Assembly (NCBI RefSeq): GCF_042231085.1
Contig: NZ_CP102579.1
DNA length: 64,000 nucleotides
Strand: one strand, 5' to 3'
Source: Corallococcus interemptor
GTDB taxonomy: Bacteria > Myxococcota > Myxococcia > Myxococcales > Myxococcaceae
Part shown: positions 2,447-27,865 of the stretch, in pieces
Numbering within the stretch: position 1 is the stretch's first letter
How the letters are laid out: each line of letters begins with the position of its first letter
Program-made: the position numbers and the translations under genes
Notes under the pieces: model-generated
The model's input: only the letters and a program-made list of their open reading frames with translations
What the model was told of the DNA's origin: nothing
Databases searched by the model: none

Positions 2447-3535
2447 TCAGCCCAGCAAGCCCTGCGCCCGAAGCAGCTCCGCCACCAGGATGGCGCCCTT
2501 CGCGGCCCCCATCTTGGTGTTGTGGGAGACGAGCACGTACTTGAAGCCGTTCTCCAGCACGCCGTCCTCGCGGATGCGGCCCACCGTGGTGGCCATGCCG
2601 CCGTGGGTGTCCCGGTCCATGCGGGGCTGGGGGCGGAACGGGTCGTCCAGCACTTCAATCCACCGGGGCGGAGCGGACGGCAGGTCCTTCGCCACCTGGG
2701 CGCCCTGCCACTCGCGCATCGCCTGGGCGACCTCCGCCACGGAGGCCTTCTTCCCGAGCGACACGAAGACGGACTCGGTGTGGCCCTCCAGGACGGCGAC
2801 GCGGGTGCAGGTGCAGGAGACGCGCACGTCGTGCGGGGTGAGCGCCGCGCCCGCGGGGTCGAGCGCCCCGAGGATCTTCTTCGTCTCCACCTCGACCTTG
2901 TGCTCCTCCTTGGGGATGTAGGGCACGACGTTGTCGAGGATGTCCAGGCCGATGACGCCGGGCGACCGTCCGGCGCCGGACATGGCCTGGAGGCTGGTCA
3001 TCAGCACGGCCTTCACGCCGAAGCGCTCGGCCAGGGGGGCCAGCGTCACGGCGAGGCCGGTGGTGGTGCAGTTGGGGATGGGGACGATGAAGCCCTTCCA
3101 CCCGCGCTGCCGGCGCTGCTCGTGGATGAGCGGGGCGTGGGCGGCGTTCACGGGGGGGATGAGCAGGGGCACGTCCGCGTCGTAGCGGAAGGCGCTCGCG
3201 GCGGAGAACACCGGGATGTCCCGGGCCAGGCGCGGCTCGATTTCACGGGCGACGTCCGCCTCCACGGCGGAGAAGGCGATGTCGTAGTCCTTCGCCTGGA
3301 CGGCGTCGCCGCTGACCACGGTCATGCGGGCGATGGCCTCCGGGAGCGGCTCCGGGACGAACCAGGCGAGCATGCCGTTGGAGGCGCGCAGGGCGTCCGC
3401 GTAGGTTTTTCCGGCGGAGCGGGGCGAAGCGGCGAGCCCGGTCAGCTCGATGAACGGGTGGTCCTTCAGGGCAGCGATGAACTGCTGGCCCGCGAGTCCG
3501 GTGGCGCCAATGAGTACGGCGCGAAGCTTGGCCAT
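2447..3535 (-). CDS. asd: aspartate-semialdehyde dehydrogenase
   Basis: N-terminal Rossmann motif MAKLRAVLIGATGLAGQQF. Active-site region IPNCTTTGLAVTLAPL with catalytic Cys. Full-length 362 aa. Confidence 0.9.
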   Translation of the reverse strand: MAKLRAVLIGATGLAGQQFIAALKDHPFIELTGLAASPRSAGKTYADALRASNGMLAWFVPEPLPEAIARMTVVSGDAVQAKDYDIAFSAVEADVAREIEPRLARDIPVFSAASAFRYDADVPLLIPPVNAAHAPLIHEQRRQRGWKGFIVPIPNCTTTGLAVTLAPLAERFGVKAVLMTSLQAMSGAGRSPGVIGLDILDNVVPYIPKEEHKVEVETKKILGALDPAGAALTPHDVRVSCTCTRVAVLEGHTESVFVSLGKKASVAEVAQAMREWQGAQVAKDLPSAPPRWIEVLDDPFRPQPRMDRDTHGGMATTVGRIREDGVLENGFKYVLVSHNTKMGAAKGAILVAELLRAQGLLG

Positions 3536-3604
3536 CGTGGAGGGTCTCCGGTGGAGGCGGCAGGGCGCTCCTTACACCGTTTCACGACGCGCTGCATCCG
3601 CCGC

Positions 3605-3991
3605 TCAACGGTGGGCGTGGGAGGGGGCGCGCGTGTGGCGTTCCGTGGGGTAGCCCCCCGTCACCCAGGCGTGGAGGCCGCCGGCGAGGCAGACGGCGTT
3701 GCGCCCCCGCAGGCGCAGCACGCGGCAGACGCGGCGGATGTCCGCGCAGTCCTGGGTGGTGCCGCAGAGGACGATGAGCTCGTCGTCCGGCAGCATCGCC
3801 AGGTCCCGCGCGATCTCCGAGGCCGTCATGCGCAGCGCGCCGGGGATGTGGATCTCGAACCGCTCCCAGTCCATCGCGTCGCGGCAATCCAGGACGAGCA
3901 CATCCTCGTCCCCCAGACGCATGAACAGCTCATCGCAAATGATGGTGGGCTCCACCGGGACCTCCCCGAGGCGACTGACTCCATCGAACAT
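3605..3991 (-). CDS. rhodanese-like domain protein
   Basis: 128 aa. The rhodanese fold pattern (VLVLDCRD...LIVLCGTTQDCADIRR) contains an active-site Cys loop. Confidence 0.7.
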   Translation of the reverse strand: MFDGVSRLGEVPVEPTIICDELFMRLGDEDVLVLDCRDAMDWERFEIHIPGALRMTASEIARDLAMLPDDELIVLCGTTQDCADIRRVCRVLRLRGRNAVCLAGGLHAWVTGGYPTERHTRAPSHAHR

Positions 3992-4060
3992 GAACCGGAG
4001 GGCTTCTTCCGCTCTTCCCGCCTGTCCGCCCGCCTGCTCCGGGGAGGCCCGCCGGGGGCG

Positions 4061-5212
4061 TCAGAGCCCCAGTTGCTTGGCGATGATTTCGTTCATCACC
4101 TCACTGGTGCCGCCGCCGATGGGCCCCAGCCGCGCGTCGCGCCAGTGACGCTGGATGTCGTACTCCATCATGTAGCCCGCGCCGCCGTGGAGCTGGAGGC
4201 ACTCGTCGGCCACGCGGCAGCAGGTCTCCGTGGCGACCTTCTTGGCCATGGAGGTCTGCGCGACGGCGTACTCGCCGGCCACGTGCAGGCGCAGCGCGTG
4301 GTAGGTGAGCTGCCGCGCGCATTCACGGGCGGTGTACAGGTCCGCCAGCTTGTGGCGCACCACCTGGAAGCCCGCCAGCGTCTGCCCGAAGGCGCGGCGC
4401 TGCTTCACGTGCTCGAGCACCGTCTCCAGCATGTCGTCCATGGCGCCCAGCGCGCCCAGCGCGAGCGACAGGCGCTCCCACTGGAAGTTGCCCATGATCT
4501 GCGAGAAGCCCTGGTTCTCCACGCCCAGCAGGTTCTCCGCGGGCACGCGGCAGTCCTCGAAGAAGAGCTCCGCCGTGTCGGACGCGCGCCAGCCCACCTT
4601 CTGGAGCTTGCGCCCCACGCTGAAGCCCGGCGTGCCCCGCTCCACCACCAGCATGGACAGGCCCTTGTGGCCGCGCGACGGGTCGGTCTTCACCGCCAGC
4701 ACCACGAAGTCCGCCCGCACCCCGTTGGTGATGTACGTCTTGGAGCCGTTGACGACGTAGTGGTCGCCGTCGCGGCGGGCGGTGGTGCGCAGCCCCGCCA
4801 CGTCCGAGCCGGCGTCCGGTTCGGAGATGCCCAGGGCGCCAATCTTCTCCCCCCGGATGGCGGGGGCCAGCCAGCGCTGCTTCTGGGCGTCCGTGCCGAA
4901 CAGGTGCACGGGGCCGGTCGCGATGGTGAACTGGCCCGCCAGCCCCGCGGCCACACCGCCGGAGCCGCAGCGGCCCAGCTCCTCCAGGAGCACCGCCTCG
5001 TACAGCTCCCCGGCCGCCGTGCCCCCGTAGGCCTCCGGGTACTTCAGGCCCAGGAAGCCCAGCTCGCCGAAGCGGGTGAAGAGCTCCCGGGGGAACTCCT
5101 CCCGGGCCTCCCAGTCCGCCGCGAACGGGCGCAGCTCCTTGTCCACCACCGCCCGGACGGTGCGGCGGAAGGCGTCGTGCTCCTCCTGGAAGACCCCATG
5201 GCCCTGCAGCAT
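4061..5212 (-). CDS. acyl-CoA dehydrogenase
   Basis: MLQGHGVFQEEHDAFRR...GSDVAGLRTTARRDGDHYVVNGSKTYITNG...QLHGGAGYMMEYDIQRHWRDAR shows canonical ACAD N-terminal, middle and C-terminal signatures. The start was moved to ATG ~5210-5212 (GGAGG RBS). The longer track ORF would overlap the tRNA-Cys. Confidence 0.85.
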   Translation of the reverse strand: MLQGHGVFQEEHDAFRRTVRAVVDKELRPFAADWEAREEFPRELFTRFGELGFLGLKYPEAYGGTAAGELYEAVLLEELGRCGSGGVAAGLAGQFTIATGPVHLFGTDAQKQRWLAPAIRGEKIGALGISEPDAGSDVAGLRTTARRDGDHYVVNGSKTYITNGVRADFVVLAVKTDPSRGHKGLSMLVVERGTPGFSVGRKLQKVGWRASDTAELFFEDCRVPAENLLGVENQGFSQIMGNFQWERLSLALGALGAMDDMLETVLEHVKQRRAFGQTLAGFQVVRHKLADLYTARECARQLTYHALRLHVAGEYAVAQTSMAKKVATETCCRVADECLQLHGGAGYMMEYDIQRHWRDARLGPIGGGTSEVMNEIIAKQLGL

Positions 5213-5344
5213 CGTGTGCTCCCTCGCTCGCTGGGGGCTGACGCCCCGCGCCGCATGGTAGCGGGACGAGAAGCACGACTGGATGGTGTTGCTTCCTTGA
5301 CCGGCTCCTGCCGGGCTGCGTATAACCCCGGCCCCAATCGCTGC

Positions 5345-5416
5345 GGCGCCATAGCCAAGTGGTAAGGCAAAGGTCTGCAAAACCTTCATTCCCCGGTTCG
5401 AATCCGGGTGGCGCCT
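5345..5416 (+). tRNA. tRNA-Cys (anticodon GCA)
   Basis: GGCGCCA/TGGCGCC form a 7-bp acceptor stem. D-arm GCC-AAGTGGTAA-GGC. Anticodon stem AAGGT/ACCTT with loop CTGCAAA (U33, GCA, A37). T-arm CCCGG-TTCGAAT-CCGGG. Discriminator U73 is typical of tRNA-Cys. No encoded CCA. Confidence 0.85.
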
Positions 5417-18391: not shown

Positions 18392-19327
18392 TCAGCCCAG
18401 GGACTTCATGAGGCGCGCCAGGAGCGGCTCCACCAGCTCCTGGCCCCGCAACCGCGAGCGCCAGCGGTGGGGAATCCCGTTCAGGCCGTGGATGAGGCCC
18501 GCGATGCCGCCCGCCACGCAGGCCGTGGTGTCCGTGTCGTGGCCCAGCCGGATGGCGGCTTTGACGACCTCTTCGTAGGTCTTCCCGTTCGCCACGCAGG
18601 CGCGGGCGGAGCGCAGGCAGTCCACGACGTAGCCTCCGCCCGTCCCCGGCGCCGGGTCGTCCGGTCGGATGTGGGCCTCCATTTCCTCCCGCTGCGGGAA
18701 GCCTTCCACGTACAGGTCCCGGAAGGTGGCCACGGCTTCGGCCCACGGATCCGCCGCGCCCTCCAAGATGCGGCGGGCCCAGAGGCAGTACAGCGCGCAG
18801 CACACCTGGGCGCGCACGTGGCCATGTGTCACGCGAGACTGGGCCATGGCATCCGAAACGAGCGCCGCGTCCTTGCCCTGGTGCCACAGGGCCAATGGCA
18901 ACACACGCATCAGTGAGCCATTGCCGTTGTCCAGGGTGCCGTTGGGGCCGGCGAGCATCGCGGGCGTGCCGTCCCGCAACCGGCGCAGGGCGGTACTGGT
19001 CTGGATGCCCACGTCGAACACGTCACCGTCCACGGCGAGGTAGCCCCAGTCCTGCCAGTTCACCAGCCGCCGGCCCAGGTCCTCGCAGTCGAGCCGCTTC
19101 TGATACGTCAGGGAGTCCAGCAGGCACAGCGCGTGGGCACCGTCGTCCGACCACGTGCCCGGTGGGACGCGGTCATGCGCGCGAGTGAAGCCCGGAGGTG
19201 GGTCGTACTCGATGGCCTCCGGGGCCGGTATCGCTTCGGGCCGGTGGAACTCATAGGGCACCCCGAGCGCGTCTCCGACGAGCAGCCCATACAGTCCCCC
19301 CGCGATGCGCTCCTCGCGCCTCACCAT
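18392..19327 (-). CDS. ADP-ribosylglycohydrolase family protein
   Basis: GGLYGLLVGDALGVPYEF...GTWSDDGAHALCL...LGHDTDTTACVAGGIAGLIHG shows DraG/ARH-type metal-binding motifs. Confidence 0.75.
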   Translation of the reverse strand: MVRREERIAGGLYGLLVGDALGVPYEFHRPEAIPAPEAIEYDPPPGFTRAHDRVPPGTWSDDGAHALCLLDSLTYQKRLDCEDLGRRLVNWQDWGYLAVDGDVFDVGIQTSTALRRLRDGTPAMLAGPNGTLDNGNGSLMRVLPLALWHQGKDAALVSDAMAQSRVTHGHVRAQVCCALYCLWARRILEGAADPWAEAVATFRDLYVEGFPQREEMEAHIRPDDPAPGTGGGYVVDCLRSARACVANGKTYEEVVKAAIRLGHDTDTTACVAGGIAGLIHGLNGIPHRWRSRLRGQELVEPLLARLMKSLG

Positions 19328-19483
19328 GTGACAACCTCCCAGGTCCGTGACCCCGACCCATCGTGTACCCAGAACACCATCCTTGTAAAGGCTGATGGGT
19401 CGCGTTGTGTTGATGATTCATGCGAAGCTCTCGCGCCCTTTCTTCCTGGGACGGGCTTCCCAATTCTCACGAGAGGCGCTCCG

Positions 19484-22400
19484 ATGCGTCGACTCACCCT
19501 GCTGGCTGCTCTCTGCCTGTCTGTCCTTGCCTCCTGTTCCCCCGTGGAGCCCGAGGCGCCGGCGTCGCCCGAGACGCTTGGCGAGGCCTCGCGGTCCCAA
19601 TCCCTGACAGTGGTCAAGGATTACTTCCTTGAGCTGACCTGGGACGGAGCCACGAAGTGCCCCACCTGTGATCGCACGACCTATGCGTGCTCGGACAACA
19701 CCGGGAATTGGAACGGGGGCGTCCGGAGCTTCACGGATCCCGTCGCCAAGGGTTGGAGGGTGACTGGCGCGGAGGTGGAGATCATTGGCCGTGGCTACGA
19801 CGGCGGGCTCACGACCGTCCTGCTGAACAGCCAGGTCCTGGGGACCTACGGCATGGCCCCGAATCCCTTCCGCGTGTGCGGTGGCTGCGAGACGCCGGAG
19901 CTCGGCTACAAGGCGCCCGACTCCATGGGGATCCCTGGCTACCGATACGGCGACATCAATACCTTCGCGCTGCGTCCGGAGCGGACCAACTGCATCGCCG
20001 CCGCCCGGATCCGCCTGAGGACGGGGCGGCCCCTGCTCAGGGTCAACCCGACGAGCCTGTCCTTCGGATCGATCGCGGTGGGCGCGTCCGCCTCGCAGAA
20101 GGTGCGGCTGACCAACGAGGGCGTCGTCCCGCTGGTCATCGACGCCATGTCGCTCCCCCTCCCCTTCAAGCTGGCGCCGGTGTCCCTGCCCTTCACGCTC
20201 AAGGAGGGCGCGACCCTGGACGTGACCGTCACGTACGCGCCCACGGCCGACCGCGTTGACTCCGGAATCCTGAGCCTGCTGAGCAACGACCCCGACAACG
20301 GCTCCCTGCCCATCAAGCTCGAGGGCACGGGCGGTGCCCCGAAGCTCGAGCTCGCGCCGACCGCGCTCGACTTCGGCACCGTGCGCGTGGGCGCGAGCAG
20401 CAACCTGCTGCTCCAGGTGAAGAACGTGGGGAGCCTGCCGCTCACGATTCCCGCCGTGCTGACGCAGGCGCCCTTCAGCGTGAGCGGCCTGGCTCCGGGA
20501 GGCAGCGTCGTGCAGCCAGGCACGGTCCTGCCGCTCACGGTGACCTTCAAGGCGACGGCGGGCGCGTTCTCCCTGCCGATGTACATCCAGGCCCAGGGGT
20601 CCGCCACGCCGCTCGCGGAGGTCTCCCTGCGGGGCACGGGCATCGAACCCGCCATCGTCGTGGCGGCGACCGCGATGGACTTCGGTGTGCACACCGCGGG
20701 GGTCGACCCTGTTCGCAAGACGCTGGCGGTCAGCAACACGGGACTGGACGACCTCGTCCTCACCGCCTTCGACGTCGAGGCGCCCTTCACGGTGGAGTCC
20801 GGCCTTCCGCTGACCATCAAGGCCCGGGAACAGGCGAACCTGACGGTGGCCTATGCCCCGGTGGCGGGCCGCGCCGCGAAGGACCTCACCCTGCGGAGCA
20901 ATGATCCGCGCACCCCGGTCGTGAAGGTGGCGCTCACCGGCACGGGCGTGGCGGTCCCCGCGCTCAAGGTCACCGCACCCGATGGTGGTACGGCGCTGGA
21001 CTTCGGCTCGCGCGAGGTCGGCTCCGTGAGCGCGCCCCAGGCCTTGACGCTCAAGAACGAGGGGGCCGGAACGCTGGTGGTGGAGTCCATCCAGGCGCCC
21101 ACGGGCTTCGCGGTCACCCCCGCGGGACGGTTCAGCCTGGCCCCCGGTGCCACGACCCAGGTCCAGGTGACCTTCGAGCCTCCGCATATCGCCCGGTTCG
21201 CACCGGAGCTGCTGCTGAGCGCGGACGGCCCGGGTGGCTCCACCCAGACCGTGCTGCTCAGCGGACAAGGCGTCGAAGGAAAGGTGACCGCCACCCCCTC
21301 GGCGCTGTCCTTCGCGCGGACGGAGGTGGGGAACACCAGCAAGGCGGTGCAGGTGACGATCGTCAATTCGGGGACGGACACGCTCACCATCAGCACCATC
21401 GCGGTGGCGGGGCCGTTCTCGCTGGTGCTCCCGAAGCTGCCGAAGGAGCTCCCGCCGCGCGACGCCTTCACGATGGAGGCGACCTTCGTCCCGGTCGAGG
21501 ACGGCGCCGCGTCCGGCGCGCTCCGCGTGTTCTCGAACGCGCCGTCGTCTCCCACGGTGGTGAAGCTGGACGGTGAGGGGCTCCAGGCCGTCTCCCGGAT
21601 GGCGAGCGACGTGATGGAGTTCGGCGGCCAGCGCGTGGGAGGCCTGAGCGCGCCCCGGGAGCTCACGCTGTTCAACATGGGCAGCGAGTCGCTGAACGTG
21701 ACGGCGGTGAACGTGAGCGGACCGTTCCAGGTGTCAGGGCTCAACGTGGGCACCAGCGTGCCGCCGCTCGGAAACCGCACGTTCCAGGTCAGCTACAAGC
21801 CCACCGAGGCCACCTCGGAGAACGGCGTGCTGGAGGTCCAGAGCAACGCGCCGCGCGCCGCCCAGGTGACGCTGCGGGGCACGGGGACCACGGCCTCGAT
21901 GGAGACGTCCGTGACGGCGCTGACCTTCGGCTCCCAGTTCCTCGGAGGGACCTCGCAGCGCGTCGTGGAGCTGCGCAACACCGGCACGAGCCCCGTCACC
22001 ATCACGGGAGTGGATCCGGTGGACGGGTTCTCCCTGTCGGGGCTCCCGCTGCCCCATGTCGTGGAGCCCCGCACCAGCCACCCCTTCTACGTCGTCTTCG
22101 AGCCACCGCGGCCGGGCGACTACGCGGGGTCGCTCGCGGTGCGGCACGACGCGTCCTCCACGCCGCTGATGGTCGCGGTGCAGGGCACGGGCGTGGCGCA
22201 GGAGCTGACGGTGACGCCCGGCGCCATCGTGTTTGGCAACCAGCGGGTGGACGCCACCAGCCAGCCCCTTTCGTTGGAGCTCGTCAACACGGGCAACGTG
22301 CCCGTCACCGTGCAGGTGACCTCCTCCGATGCCGCCTTCCGTGTGGACATGAGCGCGGCGAGCGGTGCCATCCCGGCCGGGGGCCGCGCCTCCGTCCCGG

Positions 22401-22621
22401 TGACGTTCCACCCGACGCGCACGGGCACGGTGCGCGGCGAGGTCCGCGTGGTGCCGAGCGGAGGCGGACTGGGCCCCACGGTCGTTCCCGTGGAGGGCAT
22501 TGGTGAAGCCGTCACGGTGGAGGGCAGCGGCTGCGCGGTGGGTGGGTCCGGAGGGGTCTGGGTGCTCGCGGCGTGGGTGCTGGCCAGGCGGAGGGCCCGG
22601 CGCGGTCAGCAGACCCGCTAA
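19484..22621 (+). CDS. large surface lipoprotein with tandem choice-of-anchor-D (ASH-like) Ig repeats and MYXO-CTERM
   Basis: ATG 19484 with gagagg RBS. MRRLTLLAALCLSVLASCSP lipoprotein signal. At least eight ~100-aa repeats of the form (L/M)xFGxxxVGxxSxxxxLxLxNxGxxPLxI. The C-terminus GSGCAVGGSGGVWVLAAWVLARRRARRG is a MYXO-CTERM-like sorting signal. Confidence 0.75.
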   Translation: MRRLTLLAALCLSVLASCSPVEPEAPASPETLGEASRSQSLTVVKDYFLELTWDGATKCPTCDRTTYACSDNTGNWNGGVRSFTDPVAKGWRVTGAEVEIIGRGYDGGLTTVLLNSQVLGTYGMAPNPFRVCGGCETPELGYKAPDSMGIPGYRYGDINTFALRPERTNCIAAARIRLRTGRPLLRVNPTSLSFGSIAVGASASQKVRLTNEGVVPLVIDAMSLPLPFKLAPVSLPFTLKEGATLDVTVTYAPTADRVDSGILSLLSNDPDNGSLPIKLEGTGGAPKLELAPTALDFGTVRVGASSNLLLQVKNVGSLPLTIPAVLTQAPFSVSGLAPGGSVVQPGTVLPLTVTFKATAGAFSLPMYIQAQGSATPLAEVSLRGTGIEPAIVVAATAMDFGVHTAGVDPVRKTLAVSNTGLDDLVLTAFDVEAPFTVESGLPLTIKAREQANLTVAYAPVAGRAAKDLTLRSNDPRTPVVKVALTGTGVAVPALKVTAPDGGTALDFGSREVGSVSAPQALTLKNEGAGTLVVESIQAPTGFAVTPAGRFSLAPGATTQVQVTFEPPHIARFAPELLLSADGPGGSTQTVLLSGQGVEGKVTATPSALSFARTEVGNTSKAVQVTIVNSGTDTLTISTIAVAGPFSLVLPKLPKELPPRDAFTMEATFVPVEDGAASGALRVFSNAPSSPTVVKLDGEGLQAVSRMASDVMEFGGQRVGGLSAPRELTLFNMGSESLNVTAVNVSGPFQVSGLNVGTSVPPLGNRTFQVSYKPTEATSENGVLEVQSNAPRAAQVTLRGTGTTASMETSVTALTFGSQFLGGTSQRVVELRNTGTSPVTITGVDPVDGFSLSGLPLPHVVEPRTSHPFYVVFEPPRPGDYAGSLAVRHDASSTPLMVAVQGTGVAQELTVTPGAIVFGNQRVDATSQPLSLELVNTGNVPVTVQVTSSDAAFRVDMSAASGAIPAGGRASVPVTFHPTRTGTVRGEVRVVPSGGGLGPTVVPVEGIGEAVTVEGSGCAVGGSGGVWVLAAWVLARRRARRGQQTR

Positions 22622-22731: not shown

Positions 22732-24282
22732 TCAGGGGGGAGGAGGCGCGGGGACGGTGCGGGCCGAAGTGGGCTCGCCCAGGGTCAACAGAAGCTCCGC
22801 TCGGCGGTTCTCCCCCCGGCCCGCTGGCGTACCGTTGGAGCCTGCGGGCCGGCGCGCACCGAGGCCCCGGGCTTCCAAGCGGTGAGCTGGAACGCCCTTT
22901 CGCACCAGGTAGTCGCGGACTGCTTCCGCGCGAGCGAGGGACAGACGCTGGTTGGAGGCGGTGGAGCCTTCCGCGTCCGTGTGCCCTTCGATGACGACGC
23001 GCTCCACCTCCGGATGCTCCAGCAGCACCCGCGCCACCTGATCCAGGACGCGAGAGCGCCCCGGCACCGTCGTCACGCCGACCTCGAAGAAGACCTGGCC
23101 ATGGAGGACGAGGCGCTCGCGGGTCAGGGAGACGAGCGAGTCACCAGTCTCCGGGCAGCCGCCGTGTTCGCGGGTCCCCCGCTCGTGGATGCAGGCGTCC
23201 AACACGTCCACGACACCATCGCCGTCCGTGTCGGTCTCGGAGACAGGCTCATCCCTGGCGGGCTCGGGAGGCGGAGGTTCGGAAGGCGTGGGTTCGGGTT
23301 CGAGCTGGGGGGCGGCGGGAGCACGCGGGAGCCCCTGGACCAGCTCGTAGACGATGTCCTCCGGGGGCGGAGGCGGTGGCTTGTCGAAGAGCAGCGCGAA
23401 TCCCGCGAGCACCCGGAAGCGAGGGGCTCCCGGCTCCGCGCCCAGGCCCGCCCCACCCAATGCGAAGAACTCCCAGGGCCGGGAGGGCGCGTAGCGCAGG
23501 CCGCCCAGCAGCTCGCCGCTGGTGCGCTGCTGCCGCCACGAGTACGCGCCGAGCGCCGACACCTCCGCCCGCAGGGCGTACCCCACCGTCAGGCCCACCC
23601 CGGCGCGAAGCTCGTTGCCCACGCCGTTGAGGCTGTCCACGCCGGAGTCCGTCGAGACGGCGTGACGCAGGAGCACGCCCACTTCCAGCGCCGGAGCCAC
23701 GGGCCCCCAGCGCTTGCCCATCATGAGGCGTCCCTGTCCCCGGACGCCCTGGTCGCGAGCGAGCGCCCCCGATCCGCCCACGGGCAACCGCACATCCAGG
23801 TCGAGCGCCAGGTGGAAGGCCTCGGGAGCGGAGGTCCCCAGCAAGCCCAGCCGGGCCGCGAGTCGTGGCGCGCCCAGGCCGCTCCGCGACGGGGAGGAGA
23901 TGGACAGCACGGTGCTCACGTCCGCGCCGCTCTGATGGATGACGCCAGGGAGCTGGGCCTGAAGCTCCAGCCAGGGAAGCACGCCCACGGCCAGCGACAC
24001 CACGCCGGTGGTCCGGGACAGGACGAGCGGGTATTCGTCCGGCCCGTTGCGGACCGTGAGTGACTTCCGCTGGTAGTGCGCCAGCAGGGAGATGCGAAGG
24101 GCTCCAGGTGCGAGCAGCTCCCCGCTGCCCATCGTCAGGGGGCCCAGGCCCGGGTTCGGGTCCAGGCGCTCCAGGGAGAACGTGGGCAGGGGCGTGGCGT
24201 CCTGGGCACGCGCGGGGGATGCGAACAGCAGCAGTCCCAGCGCGGCCCCGCCCACTGCGCATCGGTGCAAGGCCGGACCCAT
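22732..24282 (-). CDS. OmpA-family outer-membrane protein
   Basis: Signal peptide MGPALHRCAVGGAALGLLLFASPARAQD. Thrombospondin-type Ca-binding DTDGDGVVD. C-terminal OmpA_C (HTDAEGSTASNQRLSLARAEAVRDYLV...NRRAEL). The start was chosen at the internal ATG before the signal peptide. Confidence 0.8.
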   Translation of the reverse strand: MGPALHRCAVGGAALGLLLFASPARAQDATPLPTFSLERLDPNPGLGPLTMGSGELLAPGALRISLLAHYQRKSLTVRNGPDEYPLVLSRTTGVVSLAVGVLPWLELQAQLPGVIHQSGADVSTVLSISSPSRSGLGAPRLAARLGLLGTSAPEAFHLALDLDVRLPVGGSGALARDQGVRGQGRLMMGKRWGPVAPALEVGVLLRHAVSTDSGVDSLNGVGNELRAGVGLTVGYALRAEVSALGAYSWRQQRTSGELLGGLRYAPSRPWEFFALGGAGLGAEPGAPRFRVLAGFALLFDKPPPPPPEDIVYELVQGLPRAPAAPQLEPEPTPSEPPPPEPARDEPVSETDTDGDGVVDVLDACIHERGTREHGGCPETGDSLVSLTRERLVLHGQVFFEVGVTTVPGRSRVLDQVARVLLEHPEVERVVIEGHTDAEGSTASNQRLSLARAEAVRDYLVRKGVPAHRLEARGLGARRPAGSNGTPAGRGENRRAELLLTLGEPTSARTVPAPPPP

Positions 24283-24444
24283 GCGCCCATCTTCCGTCAG
24301 GTCCCGCCCGGGGCGAAGGGGAATGGCGGGGAGAAGCTCCATCTCCGCTCGAAGACACGGCCATGCAAATGAGACCGTTGATGTCGAAACGCCCGATGCG
24401 AGCGATGACACCGAAAGGACCAGGGCGGACCTACGACTCCAACG

Positions 24445-25536
24445 TCAGAAGGGGTCGAGCCTCGGGCAGGTACCAGCGAAGGGCTTCATCAACATTCGCA
24501 AGCTTTTTTCGGAGACCCTCCACCAAAGGTACTCAGGATTCATCTTCGCCAAGGCAAGAAAGGGCTCCCAAGCATCAAGCAGCTTGGGGTCCAGTTGTAA
24601 TGCACGGCATGTGTCGCCTGCCATCCGACTGATGATCCCCGCGCCGATGTCGGCAACCTGCACTCCTAGCGAACTCTCCGAGGAGACTTCCATCCGCTCC
24701 AGTAACTGAGTCGCGGGCCCTGGCATGGCAAAGGTGTAATGTGCATCGTCGCGCTCATCGCTCTTCGCCAGCATCAAAGAGAAACTCAAGCTCTCGCCAA
24801 ATTGGCGATCAGTATCTGAGACAATGCGCGCCACTTCGCCTCGCCCGCCCAAATCCTGACTGATGGCCCGGAGCATGATCGCAAACTCCGTGACTGCTGG
24901 CGTAGGACGCTCGCTTCGTGGCGGTGCATCGGGACGAACCAAACCGTAGCGGAACACATTTCCCAGACCTGACTCCACCATCCTCCAGGACTCCGTGACG
25001 CGAGAATCAGGGTGGAGCTTGAGCAACCACACCAGCGACTCACCTACTCGCCGTGTAGCCTCCGGGTCATCCGAACGAATTGCCGACTGCAGGTCCATCA
25101 GCAACTGATCTGGGACAGCATCAAAGACTTTGTTCGTCAGCCACCTGCGCCATCCCGGGCGCTCGGACTCAAGCGGCGCGCTTGGATTCAAATCGACATC
25201 CAAGAAGGTCTCGACCAGAAGATGACAGGCCAAGTATCGCTTTTCGGTAATGCCAAAATAGATCCGAGCCCCAGCGGACAATAATGACTGACCGACAGCG
25301 CGAACCACCTTCAGCCCCATTGTCGTCTTGCCTAGCTTTTGAAACTTCATCTCCCTTTGAAGCAGATCTCGATTTTTGTTCCGCAGGTCCGCGACCACAG
25401 CCTCAAGTTCATGCTCCTGCTCTGAACTCAAGAGGATCAAACAAGTCACAGCAAACGGCTGCTTCGTCTCGAACAGGTCCGCGCCCGTGCCTCCACTCTC
25501 GTCAGAGTAGAGAGTGCGCACCAATGAATTTGACAT
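24445..25536 (-). CDS. hypothetical protein with N-terminal YxDESG motif (DUF3800-like?) in low-GC islet
   Basis: 363 aa. The GC content of this gene is conspicuously lower than the flanks (~50-55% versus ~70%). The N-terminus LYSDESGGTG resembles the acidic motif of DUF3800-type proteins. The family assignment is tentative. Confidence 0.5.
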   Translation of the reverse strand: MSNSLVRTLYSDESGGTGADLFETKQPFAVTCLILLSSEQEHELEAVVADLRNKNRDLLQREMKFQKLGKTTMGLKVVRAVGQSLLSAGARIYFGITEKRYLACHLLVETFLDVDLNPSAPLESERPGWRRWLTNKVFDAVPDQLLMDLQSAIRSDDPEATRRVGESLVWLLKLHPDSRVTESWRMVESGLGNVFRYGLVRPDAPPRSERPTPAVTEFAIMLRAISQDLGGRGEVARIVSDTDRQFGESLSFSLMLAKSDERDDAHYTFAMPGPATQLLERMEVSSESSLGVQVADIGAGIISRMAGDTCRALQLDPKLLDAWEPFLALAKMNPEYLWWRVSEKSLRMLMKPFAGTCPRLDPF

Positions 25537-25704
25537 TAAACAATCCTCTTACTGTCGAGCGAGGGCTGTTCAGGACGATAGAGACCTCCGCACACGTAAA
25601 ACAGGCTCACCCGACACTCACTCGCATGACTCTGTGCCTGCGAGACCCAGGGTGATCCGTACGTCTGCGTCTGTGACGAAATCCGCCTCTCTGCCCTCTT
25701 CATG

Positions 25705-26981
25705 CTGAGGCATCCCCTCATCTGAATCAGATAAGCCCGAAGGCTTCGCGGAACACGGCGTGCTCGCGTACCAACTGACCAAACCGCTCCACCAGCGGGA
25801 GTAGACGTTCATCGCTCATGCGTGGCATGGCCATGAAGTAGTAGGCGCCTTGAGTAAAGAGCGAGTGAGTCCGCTTCTTCACGGTATTTACCTTCAGGTG
25901 CTTGTCATAGCCGAGCGCCTCGCCCGCGGCGCCCAGCAGCGTCAGCAGCACCTGTGCCAGGGCGGAAATGAGCAGCAGTCGATCTCTGCGGTCCGGTGTC
26001 TTCACGCGCACCTGCTTGAGGCCCATGCCAGACTTGAGGTCCTTCACGTCTCGGAAGGTCTCCTCGATGGTGAAGCGGCGGGCGTAGGCGTCCATCACTT
26101 CCTGGGCCGTAGCCTCATTGAAGCTGGTGGACAGGCACCAGGACTCCTTCATCCCCTTGCGCTTCACACACACCACCGCTCCGACTTGGGCCCCTGCCGC
26201 GGTGACGCGTGCGCCCCGCAGCACCTTCGCTCGGCCACCCTCCGGCACCCACTGGGCCGCAGGCTTCGTTTCTCCTTCCTCCGAGGTGACGATTACGTCC
26301 GAGCGGAAGCGCACCACGTACTCGAAGTCGAGCTGCTTCAAGAGCGCGTAGAACTTCGCATCCGCGAAGCCCCGGTCCGCCAGCACCGTCACCTGCACGT
26401 GGGAGGGAATCAACTCCCGCAGCCGCTGGAGGACCAGGTCCTCAGCGAGCTGCCGGTTGCCCGCGGAGGCCGATTTCTCCAGCGTCGTCCATAGCAGCGG
26501 CGTCGCGCGTCCATGACGAGTGACGAGGCTTGCCACCAGGGACTCCTGGTCGTCCTTCTCGAAATCCGTCCAGTCCAGTGCGACGACAGCCTCCGTACGC
26601 TCGGCCAGCACGAACGGCACCCAGGCTCCAAAGAGCTTCCAGACCTCAATGCCCCCATTGGAGAGCAGTCGGTCCACCTGCTTCACCGCGTGCTTGGAGG
26701 TGATGTCCTCGCCTCTCGCCCACGCCATGGCCTTGCCGATTGCCGCGATGGACAGGCTCGCCGCCTGCACCGCGCCTGGCGTCGCGTGCGAGAGGGACAG
26801 GATGCGTTTGACGTGCAGGTCGTCCTCGAACACCTCCGTCAAGAACGACCGCACCTGCTCTTCGTCGATGGCCACCTTGCGCGTCATGGTGGCTGCCTCT
26901 TTGCGCTGACTCCAGCGCCTTCGCACGTAGCCGTCGAGCGAGCGTGTGCTGATCAACTCGCTAGATGAGGGGATCCTTCAG
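25705..26981. mobile_element. IS4-family insertion sequence (1277 bp) with imperfect terminal inverted repeats and 9-bp target-site duplication
   Basis: Left end CTGAGGCATCCCCTCATCTGA. Right end (reverse complement) CTGAAGGATCCCCTCATCTAG, giving ~17/19 identity. Flanked by the direct repeat CTCTTCATG at 25696-25704 and 26982-26990. Contains a single DDE transposase ORF. Confidence 0.75.
25727..26887 (-). CDS. IS4-family DDE transposase
   Basis: MTRKVAIDEEQVRSFL... with DDE-region motifs LDWTDF, VLADRGFADAKFY and a C-terminal YxxRxxIEExF-like (YARRFTIEETFRDVK) signature of IS4/IS5 transposases. Confidence 0.8.
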   Translation of the reverse strand: MTRKVAIDEEQVRSFLTEVFEDDLHVKRILSLSHATPGAVQAASLSIAAIGKAMAWARGEDITSKHAVKQVDRLLSNGGIEVWKLFGAWVPFVLAERTEAVVALDWTDFEKDDQESLVASLVTRHGRATPLLWTTLEKSASAGNRQLAEDLVLQRLRELIPSHVQVTVLADRGFADAKFYALLKQLDFEYVVRFRSDVIVTSEEGETKPAAQWVPEGGRAKVLRGARVTAAGAQVGAVVCVKRKGMKESWCLSTSFNEATAQEVMDAYARRFTIEETFRDVKDLKSGMGLKQVRVKTPDRRDRLLLISALAQVLLTLLGAAGEALGYDKHLKVNTVKKRTHSLFTQGAYYFMAMPRMSDERLLPLVERFGQLVREHAVFREAFGLI

Positions 26982-27013
26982 CTCTTCATGGGCAGAGAGG
27001 TCCGACAATCACA

Positions 27014-27865
27014 TCATTTCCCCGCGCGCTGAGCCGCCTCCAGCGTGTTCTTCATCAGCATGGCAATCGTCATCGGGCCCACCCCACCCGGCACCGGCGT
27101 GATGAACGACGCGCGCTCCGCCGCGGCGGCGAACTCCACGTCCCCCACCAGCTTGCCGTCCGCCTTGCGGTTCATGCCCACGTCAATCACCACCGCGCCG
27201 GGCTTGATCCACGCGCCCTTCACCAGCTCCGGCACGCCCACCGCCACCACCAGGATGTCCGCCTGCGCCACCTCCGACGGCAGGTCGCTCTTGCGGTGGC
27301 ACACCGTCACCGTCGCGTCCTTCTGGAGCAGCATCAGCGCCTGCGGCTTGCCCACGATGTTGCTGCGGCCCACCACCACCGCGCGCTTTCCCGCCGGATT
27401 GCACCCCACCTCCTCCAACAGCCGCATCACCCCGTAGGGCGTGCACGCCCGCGTCGCCGGGCGGCCCAGCAGCAGGTTGCCCGCGTTCATCGGGTGGAAG
27501 CCGTCCGCGTCCTTCTCCGGCTTCACCGCCGCGATGATGGCGTCCGCGTCGATGTGCTTGGGCAACGGCAACTGCACCAGGATGCCGTGCACCGCCGGGT
27601 CCTCGTTCAGCCGGTGCACCAGCGCCAGGAGCTCGGCCTGGGTGATGGTCTCGTCCGGGTGGTGCTCCCAGGAGTTGAAGCCCACCTCCTCGGCGGCCTT
27701 CTTCTTGCCCGTCACGTAGATTTTCGACGCCGGGTCCTCGCCCACGCGCACCACGGCGAGCCCCGGGGTGATGCCGCGCTCCGCCTTCAGGCGCGCCACC
27801 TCCTCCTTGATCTCCGCCCGCACGCGCGCCGCCACTGCCTTGCCGTCAATCAACTGAGCCGTCAT
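27014..27865 (-). CDS. folD: bifunctional methylenetetrahydrofolate dehydrogenase/methenyl-THF cyclohydrolase
   Basis: 283 aa [20 protein letters not shown]...[11 protein letters not shown]...[15 protein letters not shown] is collinear with FolD. The ORF-track N-extension to 28663 is spurious. Confidence 0.9.

What the first reader, a model, noticed from the sequence alone, without database searches (positions are those of the whole stretch)
24420..25700. Low-GC islet carrying a DESG-motif gene (DUF3800-like?) between ompA-family and folD genes
GC content drops visibly (runs such as aacattcgcaagcttttttcggagaccctccaccaaaggtactcaggattcatcttcgcc) against a ~70% background. That marks horizontally acquired DNA.

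The single gene on it (24445-25536, minus strand) begins ...LYSDESGGTGADLFE. Its overall composition is reminiscent of DUF3800-type proteins, which are common cargo of mobile and defence islands and have been proposed to have an RNase-H-like fold.

It sits directly beside an intact IS. A single-gene low-GC insertion in this position is a plausible stand-alone phage-defence or abortive-infection gene.
Basis: partly seen in the sequence, partly recalled or inferred. Interest (0 to 1): 0.6.

Follow-up and report, generated by a model that had tools for sequence, protein, structure and literature searches.

The report
Foreign DUF3800 nuclease gene islet
A single foreign gene for a predicted RNase H-like nuclease (family DUF3800, no tested function) sits in a spot of a Corallococcus chromosome where every related species carries different cargo; it may defend against phages, but that rests only on which genes its relatives sit beside.

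Summary
Window 24420-25700 is the lowest-GC, most compositionally atypical stretch of the 64 kb: GC 0.56 against 0.70, GC3 0.65 against 0.94 (z -6.1), tetranucleotide z +5.4.

The gene at 24445-25536(-) encodes the stated DESG protein. It lies between folD and an OmpA-family gene and next to an intact IS4-family element.

Comparison with other genomes shows horizontal acquisition. The folD-OmpA interval holds different cargo in every Corallococcus species, about 84 bp in one. A 98-99% identical strain (KYC2213) has a four-deletion remnant of this gene and no IS. The foreign DNA is about 1.2 kb (about 24441-25635), bracketed by scraps of a native lipoprotein gene.

The defence role is only circumstantial. 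Relatives sit among restriction-modification, Abi, GmrSD and TIR genes and match untested PADLOC candidates. This protein matches no defence model significantly, has no partner gene or RNA, and its neighbours here are housekeeping genes.

Verdict: an ordinary accessory islet carrying a rare long-form member of a known, uncharacterised family.

The parts
24441..25635 (-). Foreign insert proper, about 1.2 kb: the DUF3800 ORF plus its roughly 100-nt leader. GC 0.558.
   Evidence: It is bounded on both sides by remnants of a native lipoprotein gene. The insert is absent from other Corallococcus species.
24445..25536 (-). DUF3800-family gene, 363 aa (WP_375745702.1), a predicted RNase H2-like nuclease. 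Invariant residues in the family are D12, G15, G18, E98, D113, D241, A295 and D296. E13 (second residue of the DE motif) is not an invariant column; Q293 (QxAD) is conserved in at least 90% of sequences.
25545..25550 (-). Shine-Dalgarno-like AAGAGG, 8 nt upstream of the ATG.
   Evidence: Read directly from the sequence.
25537..25635 (-). Foreign 5' leader, GC 0.525. No detectable conserved or stable RNA structure.
   Evidence: Fold z -1.45 for the 167-nt upstream region. No conservation with the relatives' upstream regions. No Rfam match.
25636..25668 (+). Remnant A: the 3' end of a native small Cys-rich lipoprotein gene (ACETQGDPYVC).
   Evidence: tblastn match to the C-terminus of the L011/L007 lipoproteins. 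Local alignment to the L011 site scores 41, reached by 0 of 500 shuffles.
24360..24440 (+). Remnant B: a heavily deleted, frameshifted second copy of the lipoprotein gene (MQMRPLMSK..RPMRAMTP..KDQGGP).
   Evidence: Frame translations and comparison with the L011/L007 proteins. Local alignment scores 34, reached by 0 of 500 shuffles.
25704..26982 (-). Intact IS4-family insertion sequence, 1279 bp. Terminal inverted repeats at 25704-25723 and 26963-26982. Transposase ORF 25727-26956(-) as listed; probable ATG start at 26886.
   Evidence: NF033591 at 4.9e-67. PF01609. Inverted-repeat pair I2, 20 nt, 90% complementary. Single copy in the window. Absent from KYC2213.
25697..25703 (-). Target-site duplication ATGAAGA(G), copy on the gene side. 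The other copy is at 26983-26989.
   Evidence: Read directly from the sequence.
26983..27000 (-). Left arm (26990-27000) of the hairpin that follows folD, plus the folD-side copy of the target duplication. The right arm is at 25686-25696. The IS split the loop.
   Evidence: Inverted-repeat pair I15, 11 nt, 100% complementary. The rebuilt site folds at -33.6 kcal/mol, z -4.9. A homologous hairpin is present in L005, L006, L008 and L011.
27014..27865 (-). folD (283 aa), the conserved left border of the hotspot.
   Evidence: 93-99% DNA identity to all Corallococcus loci. Start mapped.
22732..24282 (-). OmpA-family outer-membrane protein gene, the conserved right border. The probable start is the ATG at 24282. 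The conserved leader begins at about 24329.
   Evidence: PF00691 at 2.3e-20. Synteny. Leader alignment.

Best explanation
The locus is a single horizontally acquired gene with its own roughly 100-nt leader, about 1.2 kb in all. It was inserted by illegitimate recombination into a hypervariable spot between folD and an OmpA-family gene of a Corallococcus chromosome.

The gene encodes a long-form DUF3800 protein. This has an RNase H fold closest to type 2 RNases H. It keeps acidic residues in the same order along the fold as the RNase HII catalytic residues: D12-E13 on strand 1, D241 at the end of strand 4, and D296 in the helix after strand 5. A family-specific helical insert of about 130 aa lies between strands 3 and 4.

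The most likely function is a metal-dependent nuclease acting on RNA or RNA/DNA hybrids, serving alone as an effector against phages or other mobile elements. This step is inferred, not shown.

An IS4-family element later inserted into the loop of the hairpin that follows folD, 160 nt upstream of the gene. It is unrelated to the gene's arrival. In the sister strain KYC2213 the gene has been reduced to a roughly 200-bp remnant, so it is dispensable accessory DNA with a rapid turnover.
For: Foreign origin: composition z-scores of -4.5 to -6.1. The gene is absent from the same site in C. interemptor AB047A, C. exercitus (two strains), C. carmarthensis, C. aberystwythensis and C. sp. RDP092CA, each of which has different content or about 84 bp. 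Only three relatives above 50% identity exist among 5.8 billion proteins, all from metagenomes. The relative on L001 also sits in a low-GC patch of a 0.71-GC contig.

Borders: both flanks match one site in L011 that is the 3' end of a lipoprotein gene.

Defence association: relatives lie next to AbiEii and a Schlafen-like protein, GmrSD, a type I restriction fragment and DUF499/DUF3780, and FRG. One lies in an AAA/PP2C/DUF3800 operon with a PIN gene beside it. Neighbours of six further loci include restriction-modification enzymes, AbiTii, PbeA, bSEFIR/TIR, Mrr, PDC-S06 and integrases. 20 of 33 relatives match PADLOC PDC-M04A and 8 of 33 match PDC-S51.

Order of events: KYC2213 has the remnant but no IS. 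The IS has its own target duplication.
Against: No stand-alone DUF3800 protein has been shown to defend against phage in anything I could find. The PDC systems are explicitly untested.

The window protein itself reaches only E=0.02 (12.3 bits) against PDC-M04A and nothing else in PADLOC. It has no NCBIfam hit.

Its surroundings here are housekeeping genes, not a defence island. The other cargoes at this hotspot are an eCIS_core toxin-like protein, a trypsin-like protease and unknowns, not defence genes.

The gene decayed in KYC2213, so selection to keep it is weak or intermittent.

Similarity to RNase HII is structural only; hhalign probability is 0.3%. The Pfam score is marginal for this protein (21.6 against 21).
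Confidence: 0.5

Rival explanations
1. The gene is functionless or neutral cargo: an intact but unselected leftover of a mobile element, on its way to being lost and contributing nothing to the host at present.
For: The same insertion has been cut to about 200 bp by four deletions in a 98-99% identical strain. The site is a graveyard of decayed lipoprotein gene copies. No recognisable sigma-70 promoter was found. The exact protein occurs in one genome only.
Against: The ORF is full length with a good Shine-Dalgarno sequence. It keeps every residue that is invariant across 33 relatives down to 21% identity. The model is confident throughout.
Confidence: 0.22
2. The protein works with an RNA partner, as the 11 DUF3800-associated ncRNA motifs suggest for other family members, and acts as an RNA-processing or RNA-guided nuclease. 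The partner would be in the leader or elsewhere in the genome.
For: Eleven unrelated structured RNA motifs associate with DUF3800 genes (PMC5737381). DUF3800 domains accompany retron reverse transcriptases and RNA-targeting Cas12a2 and Cas13 loci. The foreign insert carries a 100-nt non-coding leader.
Against: No Rfam DUF3800 motif is present in the window or in 12 relatives' loci. Neither flank folds better than shuffled controls, z -1.45 and -0.5. The flanks are not conserved among the four closest relatives. There is no reverse transcriptase, CRISPR array or repeat nearby.
Confidence: 0.1
3. The gene is a toxin or effector in interbacterial conflict or an addiction module, rather than an anti-phage gene.
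For: The same hotspot holds an eCIS_core (DUF4157) toxin-like protein with a partner in two species. Relatives lie next to SMI1_KNR4 and next to a Tox-REase-5/Imm52 type VI secretion cassette.
Against: There is no signal peptide, PAAR, Rhs or other delivery domain (only DUF3800 in Pfam). The 1.2-kb insert has no room for an adjacent small immunity or antitoxin ORF. Restriction-modification and Abi neighbours are more frequent among relatives.
Confidence: 0.1
4. The gene is a housekeeping RNase H paralogue of the host, and its low GC merely reflects low expression.
For: The best structural matches are RNase HII/HIII.
Against: It is absent from the site in all other Corallococcus species. There is no sequence-level similarity to RNase HII. 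GC3 is 0.65 against 0.94, far outside the host range. Its nearest relatives are scattered metagenome sequences.
Confidence: 0.02
5. The gene is the transposase or recombinase of its own small mobile element, since DDE enzymes also have an RNase H fold.
For: It has an RNase H-like fold with conserved carboxylates. It arrived as a single gene.
Confidence: 0.03

Closest known systems
Pfam PF12686 (DUF3800), stand-alone proteins
   Same: The HMM match is above the gathering score. The N-terminal DE motif and C-terminal QxxD motif are present. The fold is predicted RNase H-like. The genes occur on mobile elements and in defence islands. NCBI uses the same name for this protein.
   Different: This is a long form of about 360 aa. 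The 149-position Pfam domain is split by a helical insert of about 130 aa (residues 99-231), so the match spans residues 9-304. The subfamily is rare: 168 representatives at E<1e-3 among 1.84 billion. No associated RNA motif was found.
Type 2 RNases H (RNase HII/HIII, human H2A; PDB 1io2, 4py5, 2d0a, 3puf)
   Different: There is no detectable sequence homology. Additional invariant residues E98 and D113 are present. There is a large helical insert. The gene is not housekeeping or syntenic. The literature notes a rearranged catalytic site in DUF3800 (PMC10910872; PMC7736814).
Retron type VII effector (DUF3800 fused to, or next to, the reverse transcriptase)
   Same: Same Pfam family and the same predicted RNase H2-like fold.
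   Different: There is no reverse transcriptase or msr/msd here. The retron-linked proteins lack the Q of QxxD, whereas this protein keeps Q293.
TPR-DUF3800 accessory proteins of Cas12a2, Cas12a3 and VI-F CRISPR loci
   Same: Same domain family, a predicted nuclease accessory to immune systems.
   Different: There is no TPR domain and no cas genes or CRISPR array within 10 kb on either side.
PADLOC phage defence candidates PDC-M04A and PDC-S51
   Same: 20 of 33 and 8 of 33 members of this protein's family match these models. Like them, relatives are embedded among restriction and BREX-type genes.
   Different: The window protein itself reaches only E=0.02 for PDC-M04A and does not match PDC-S51. 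The candidates are untested.

Membership tests
Pfam DUF3800 (PF12686) | HMM score at or above the gathering threshold | tested here: met
   21.6 bits against 21, E=3.8e-4, profile positions 2-148 of 149. This is marginal for the protein itself, but 33 of 33 aligned relatives match, best 2.4e-14.
Pfam DUF3800 (PF12686) | N-terminal DE motif and C-terminal QxxD motif, as described in PMC7736814 | tested here: met
   D12-E13 (DESG) and Q293-V-A-D296. D12 and D296 are invariant and Q293 is conserved in at least 90% of 33 sequences. Motif definition.
Pfam DUF3800 (PF12686) | RNase H-like fold | tested here: met
Pfam DUF3800 (PF12686) | Nearby DUF3800-I to XI RNA motif (frequent in the family, not obligatory) | tested here: not met
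   No Rfam match at E<=10 in 24200-27100. No match at gathering score in the window or in 12 relatives' loci.
Type 2 RNase H (RNase HII/HIII) | Sequence or profile homology to RNase HII | tested here: not met
   hhalign of the family profile against 1io2_A gives probability 0.3%, E 0.18. No PDB sequence hit.
Type 2 RNase H (RNase HII/HIII) | DEDD carboxylates in catalytic geometry | tested here: inconclusive
   D12/E13, D241 and D296 lie on strand 1, at the end of strand 4 and in the helix after strand 5, the same order as D7/E8, D105 and D135 of Tk-RNase HII.
Type 2 RNase H (RNase HII/HIII) | Conserved housekeeping gene in related genomes | tested here: not met
   Absent from the same site in six other Corallococcus genomes. 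Single-genome occurrence.
PADLOC PDC-M04 / PDC-S51 (untested defence candidates) | Significant match to the candidate's protein model | tested here: not met
   PDC-M04A at E=0.02, 12.3 bits, N-terminal 66 residues only. No PDC-S51 hit at E<=1. Relatives do match.
PADLOC PDC-M04 / PDC-S51 (untested defence candidates) | Partner gene(s) of the multi-gene candidate PDC-M04 next to it | not tested
   The make-up of PDC-M04 is not in the papers I could read. The 1.2-kb insert holds no second gene.
Retron type VII | Adjacent or fused retron reverse transcriptase with msr/msd | tested here: not met
   The only genes in the interval are the DUF3800 gene and a DDE transposase. No retron RNA in Rfam.
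CRISPR-associated TPR-DUF3800 | TPR fusion and a neighbouring cas12a2/cas13 gene with a CRISPR array | tested here: not met
   No TPR in Pfam. No arrays or spaced repeats in 14000-36000.
IS4-family insertion sequence (the neighbour) | DDE transposase, terminal inverted repeats, target-site duplication | tested here: met
   NF033591 at 226 bits against a cut-off of 152. 20-nt inverted repeats, 90% complementary. ATGAAGA(G) duplicated at both ends.

The most novel reading that the evidence does not exclude
Long-form stand-alone DUF3800 proteins are a new single-gene immune system. In this reading an RNase H2-like nuclease destroys RNA/DNA hybrids or RNA of invading phages or plasmids, and its family-specific helical insert of about 130 aa acts as the sensor. 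This myxobacterial copy, with a natural null allele in strain KYC2213, would be a ready-made test pair.
Probability: 0.3. Interest if true: 0.55.

Novelty: new member of a known kind. Interest (0 to 1): 0.3.

Why it matters
DUF3800 is a widespread family with no tested function. It turns up beside retrons, Cas12a2/Cas13 loci, eleven orphan RNA motifs and restriction systems, so any tractable member is useful.

This copy is a clean single-gene insert with defined borders. A naturally decayed allele exists in a near-identical strain, which makes a gain-or-loss experiment simple.

Apart from that, the locus is a routine example of accessory-gene turnover. The protein is already annotated as DUF3800 in public databases, so the finding adds little that is new by itself.

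The folD-OmpA interval is a modest by-product that may be useful for studies of myxobacterial genome plasticity: it lacks an integrase or a nearby tRNA gene, yet carries different cargo in every Corallococcus species.

Tried and rejected
(1) Flanking direct repeats as att-like sites. Both flanks match one 35-nt site in L011, but that site is the 3' end of a small lipoprotein gene. The flanks are therefore remnants of two decayed host gene copies, not recombination sites. They are not significantly similar to each other, and the repeat finder shows nothing at the ends.

(2) An associated ncRNA. Rfam found nothing. Folding z-scores are -1.45 and -0.5. The flank alignments show no conservation.

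(3) The DUF3800 gene as a passenger of the IS. Rejected: the target duplication brackets only the 1279-bp IS, and KYC2213 has the gene remnant without the IS.

(4) Sequence homology to RNase HII. hhalign was not significant.

(5) Phage origin. No tblastn hit in 50,697 phage records or in IMG/VR. Only a structural match to a phage DUF3800 protein.

(6) More close relatives. The metagenome scan with the single protein found none. Alignments A1 and A4 were too divergent to give search patterns. Alignment A5 gave only distant loci. The profile search of the 5.8-billion-protein collection added two proteins.

(7) Domain fusions as clues. Longer relatives have extra regions of about 270 aa with no Pfam match, and one has a SEC-C motif.

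(9) A sigma-70 promoter scan found nothing. This is of little weight for a myxobacterium.
Full report
OBSERVATION

The window is a Corallococcus chromosome. The exact protein is WP_375745702.1 of C. interemptor, on a 9.45-Mb contig.

GC falls from 0.70-0.75 to 0.53-0.59 across about 24300-25800. The stated interval has GC 0.564 against a window mean of 0.703 (sd 0.029 for 1280-bp windows). It is the only such trough in the 64 kb.

For the gene, GC3 is 0.647 against 0.937 +/- 0.047 in 35 reference genes (z -6.1). Codon adaptation is 0.254 against 0.744 (z -4.5). Tetranucleotide distance has z +5.4, the highest in the window.

The ORF 24445-25536(-) encodes 363 aa beginning MSNSLVRTLYSDESGGTGADLFE. 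It has an AAGAGG Shine-Dalgarno sequence 8 nt upstream.

All four genes are on the minus strand, in this order:
- folD, 27014-27865;
- an IS4-family element, 25704-26982;
- the gene in question;
- an OmpA-family gene, 22732-24282.

WHAT THE PROTEIN IS

Pfam gives a single hit, DUF3800 (PF12686). It scores 21.6 bits against a gathering score of 21, and nearly the whole 149-position profile is spread over residues 9-304. NCBIfam has nothing. PHROGs gives weak N-terminal hits to families of unknown function. PADLOC gives only PDC-M04A at E=0.02.

An exhaustive HMMER search of 1.84 billion representatives found 168 relatives at E<1e-3. Of these, 38 have E<1e-10. Most are 350-375 aa and align end to end. 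Only three are above 50% identity, all from metagenomes.

In an alignment of 33 of the relatives, D12, G15, G18, E98, D113, D241, A295 and D296 are invariant. Q293, K99 and S286 are nearly so. These correspond to the N-terminal DE motif and C-terminal QxxD motif that define DUF3800 in PMC7736814. All 33 match the Pfam model, best 2.4e-14.

The order of secondary-structure elements is:
- strand 1 (residues 5-14, carrying D12-E13);
- strand 2 (28-36);
- helices;
- strand 3 (91-98, ending in E98);
- an all-helical insert (99-231);
- strand 4 (234-241, ending in D241);
- a helix;
- strand 5 (278-284);
- a helix (290-310, carrying Q293 and D296).

This parallels RNase HII, whose catalytic residues are D7/E8, D105 and D135. 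That mapping is my inference. It rests, on the 1io2 sequence verified, and on the published active site of RNase HII.

There is no sequence-level homology to RNase HII, and no solved structure of any relative exists. I could not measure active-site distances.

Published analyses reach the same fold prediction. They note a rearranged or DEED-type site in some DUF3800 proteins.

HOW IT GOT THERE

I fetched the same locus from other Corallococcus genomes through the OmpA-family neighbour. Homology on the folD side ends just after the folD stop codon, and homology on the OmpA side starts at window position about 24329. Between these points every genome differs:

| Locus | Organism | Interval |
|---|---|---|
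| L009 | C. sp. RDP092CA | about 84 bp |
| L005 | C. interemptor AB047A | 2.9 kb: an eCIS_core (DUF4157) protein and a 469-aa unknown |
| L008 | C. exercitus AB043A | 2.2 kb: a 457-aa unknown resembling the 469-aa protein of L005 (translations; not formally aligned), and a 177-aa ORF |
| L006 | C. exercitus SDU142 | 2.5 kb: two unknowns, local GC 0.47-0.57 |
| L007 | C. carmarthensis | at least 2.1 kb: a 272-aa unknown, GC 0.53 |
| L011 | C. aberystwythensis | 4.6 kb: a secreted trypsin-like protease, a 277-aa unknown and a partial folD duplicate |

None of the cargo proteins matches a known defence model convincingly. The interval is therefore a general accessory-gene hotspot, with no integrase. 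The only tRNA in the window is 19 kb away.

Most loci keep a GC-rich hairpin directly after folD. The rebuilt hairpin in the window folds at -33.6 kcal/mol, z -4.9.

Several genomes also carry copies of a small Cys-rich lipoprotein gene on the opposite strand, ending in ...DACKNQGGPYVCGL*:
- L011 has two copies;
- L007 has three;
- L006 has a pseudogene;
- L008 has a fragment.

In the window only scraps of two copies remain. One lies upstream of the DUF3800 leader (25636-25668, ACETQGDPYVC). The other lies just downstream of the stop codon (24360-24440, frameshifted). Both match the same L011 segment far better than shuffled controls do, with 0 of 500 shuffles reaching either score.

The foreign DNA is thus about 24441-25635, GC 0.558. 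It holds one gene and a leader of about 100 nt, with no inverted or direct terminal repeats of its own. Illegitimate recombination is the simplest reading.

ORDER OF EVENTS

C. coralloides KYC2213 (L010) is 98-99% identical in both flanks. In place of the gene it has about 200 bp. These consist of the Shine-Dalgarno sequence and start codon, joined to a piece matching 25227-25105 (92.7% identity), then to a piece matching 24668-24597 (87.5%), then to position 24395 and onward.

Relative to the window this amounts to four deletions. Two of them lie at microhomologies (AAGAGG and TGTCA). There is no IS. The insertion therefore predates the split of the two strains and has decayed in one of them.

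The IS4-family element is complete. It has a transposase above the NCBIfam cut-off, 20-nt inverted repeats and an ATGAAGA(G) target duplication. It landed later, in the loop of the hairpin that follows folD. It is single-copy in the window and has no close match in PLSDB. It is a neighbour of the gene, not a vehicle for it.

WHAT IT PROBABLY DOES

No DUF3800 protein has a demonstrated activity in the literature I could search. The family accompanies type VII retrons, Cas12a2, Cas12a3 and VI-F CRISPR loci as a TPR fusion, and eleven unrelated orphan RNA motifs.

For this subfamily the genomic company is often defence-like:
- AbiEii and a Schlafen/AlbA_2 protein;
- GmrSD, a type I restriction fragment and DUF499/DUF3780;
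- FRG;
- an AAA/PP2C/DUF3800 operon with a PIN gene beside it, on a Sinorhizobium plasmid.

Other relatives sit beside SMI1_KNR4 or a Tox-REase-5/Imm52 cassette.

I also scanned 41 neighbours of six more distant loci. They include restriction-modification enzymes, AbiTii, PbeA, bSEFIR/TIR, Mrr, PDC-S06, PDC-S66, integrases, a resolvase and PcfK.

Of the 33 relatives, 20 match PADLOC PDC-M04A and 8 match PDC-S51. These candidates were proposed because they are embedded in BREX, DISARM or type I restriction loci, and they have not been tested.

Against this, the window protein does not itself reach significance for any defence model. Its neighbours here are housekeeping genes. It has no partner gene, reverse transcriptase, CRISPR array or detectable RNA. 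And it has been lost in the sister strain.

My confidence, step by step:
- foreign single-gene insert: about 0.95, shown;
- DUF3800 member with an RNase H2-like fold: about 0.9, shown on a predicted structure;
- active metal-dependent nuclease: about 0.6, inferred from invariant carboxylates;
- anti-phage or anti-mobile-element role: about 0.4-0.5, inferred from association only.

COMPARISON AND NOVELTY

The gene is a member of a known but uncharacterised family, and it is already annotated as such. It differs from the typical short DUF3800 proteins by the 130-aa helical insert, and from the retron and CRISPR forms by standing alone.

I rate it a new member of a known kind. Its defence interpretation is plausible but unproven. 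The IS is incidental.

Interest is modest (0.3). The main value is a clean natural presence/absence pair for testing a DUF3800 protein.

Noticed in passing
window 24283-27013, and the matching intervals L005:1376-4262, L006:7529-9999, L007:1-2123, L008:1334-3534, L009:9915-9999, L011:1388-6017: The folD-OmpA intergenic interval is a hypervariable hotspot. Every Corallococcus species examined carries different, mostly lower-GC cargo there, or about 84 bp in one. No integrase or nearby tRNA is present.
   Followed up: partly
L011:1419-1730 and 4965-5348; L007:1182-2012; L006:7559-7845; window 25636-25668 and 24360-24440: A family of small secreted Cys-rich lipoproteins (about 105-128 aa, ending ...DACKNQGGPYVCGL) occurs at this site in one to three tandem copies, as pseudogenes or as scraps. 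It has no Pfam assignment and its function is unknown.
   Followed up: partly
window 25686-25696 and 26990-27000: The IS4-family element inserted exactly into the 7-nt loop of a perfect 11-bp GC-rich hairpin that follows folD and is conserved in four other species. This may reflect a preference of this IS for hairpin targets.
   Followed up: partly
L011:3279-3569: A 291-bp partial duplicate of folD (94.5% identical to window 27532-27820) lies inside the cargo of C. aberystwythensis. It is bracketed by two 49-nt repeats that are 94% identical (1422-1470 and 4968-5016), which suggests a duplication-mediated rearrangement.
   Followed up: no
L005:1403-2548(-) and 2598-4007(+); L008:1961-3334(+): Two species carry an eCIS_core (DUF4157) protein and/or a 457-469 aa protein with no Pfam match at the hotspot. 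This could be a toxin/immunity-like pair.
   Followed up: no
L084:299-7098 (Sinorhizobium chiapasense plasmid NZ_CP133151.1): A DUF3800 gene ends a four-gene run of overlapping ORFs (AAA-domain protein of about 1150 aa, a hypothetical protein, PP2C phosphatase, DUF3800), with a PIN-domain gene next to it. A second Sinorhizobium plasmid also pairs PP2C with DUF3800 (H3). This is a candidate multi-gene system.
   Followed up: no
L092:1781-4679, L093:1557-4455, L094:333-3231: A GmrSD_N (DUF262) gene, a 54-aa ORF and a DUF3800 gene lie on the same strand in three contigs, next to a fragment of a type I restriction R subunit and DUF499/DUF3780 genes.
   Followed up: no
L001:8452-9684(-): The closest relative with context (54% identity) shares its low-GC patch with a divergently transcribed 410-aa gene. 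That gene has a sub-threshold match to nucleoside 2-deoxyribosyltransferase (22.5 bits against 28.8).
   Followed up: no
L102:7986-9023 and L110:7977-9074: Distant DUF3800 genes are compositional outliers in their own contigs too: GC 0.32 in a 0.45-0.50 background, and GC 0.53 inside a 0.32-0.38 patch.
   Followed up: no
window 19133-22621(+): A 1162-aa ORF with many repeated units of about 100 aa and a C-terminal hydrophobic, arginine-rich tail lies next to the OmpA-family gene. It was not analysed.
   Followed up: no
window 5345-5416(+): This is the only Rfam match in the window at gathering score: a tRNA, 69.4 bits.
   Followed up: no
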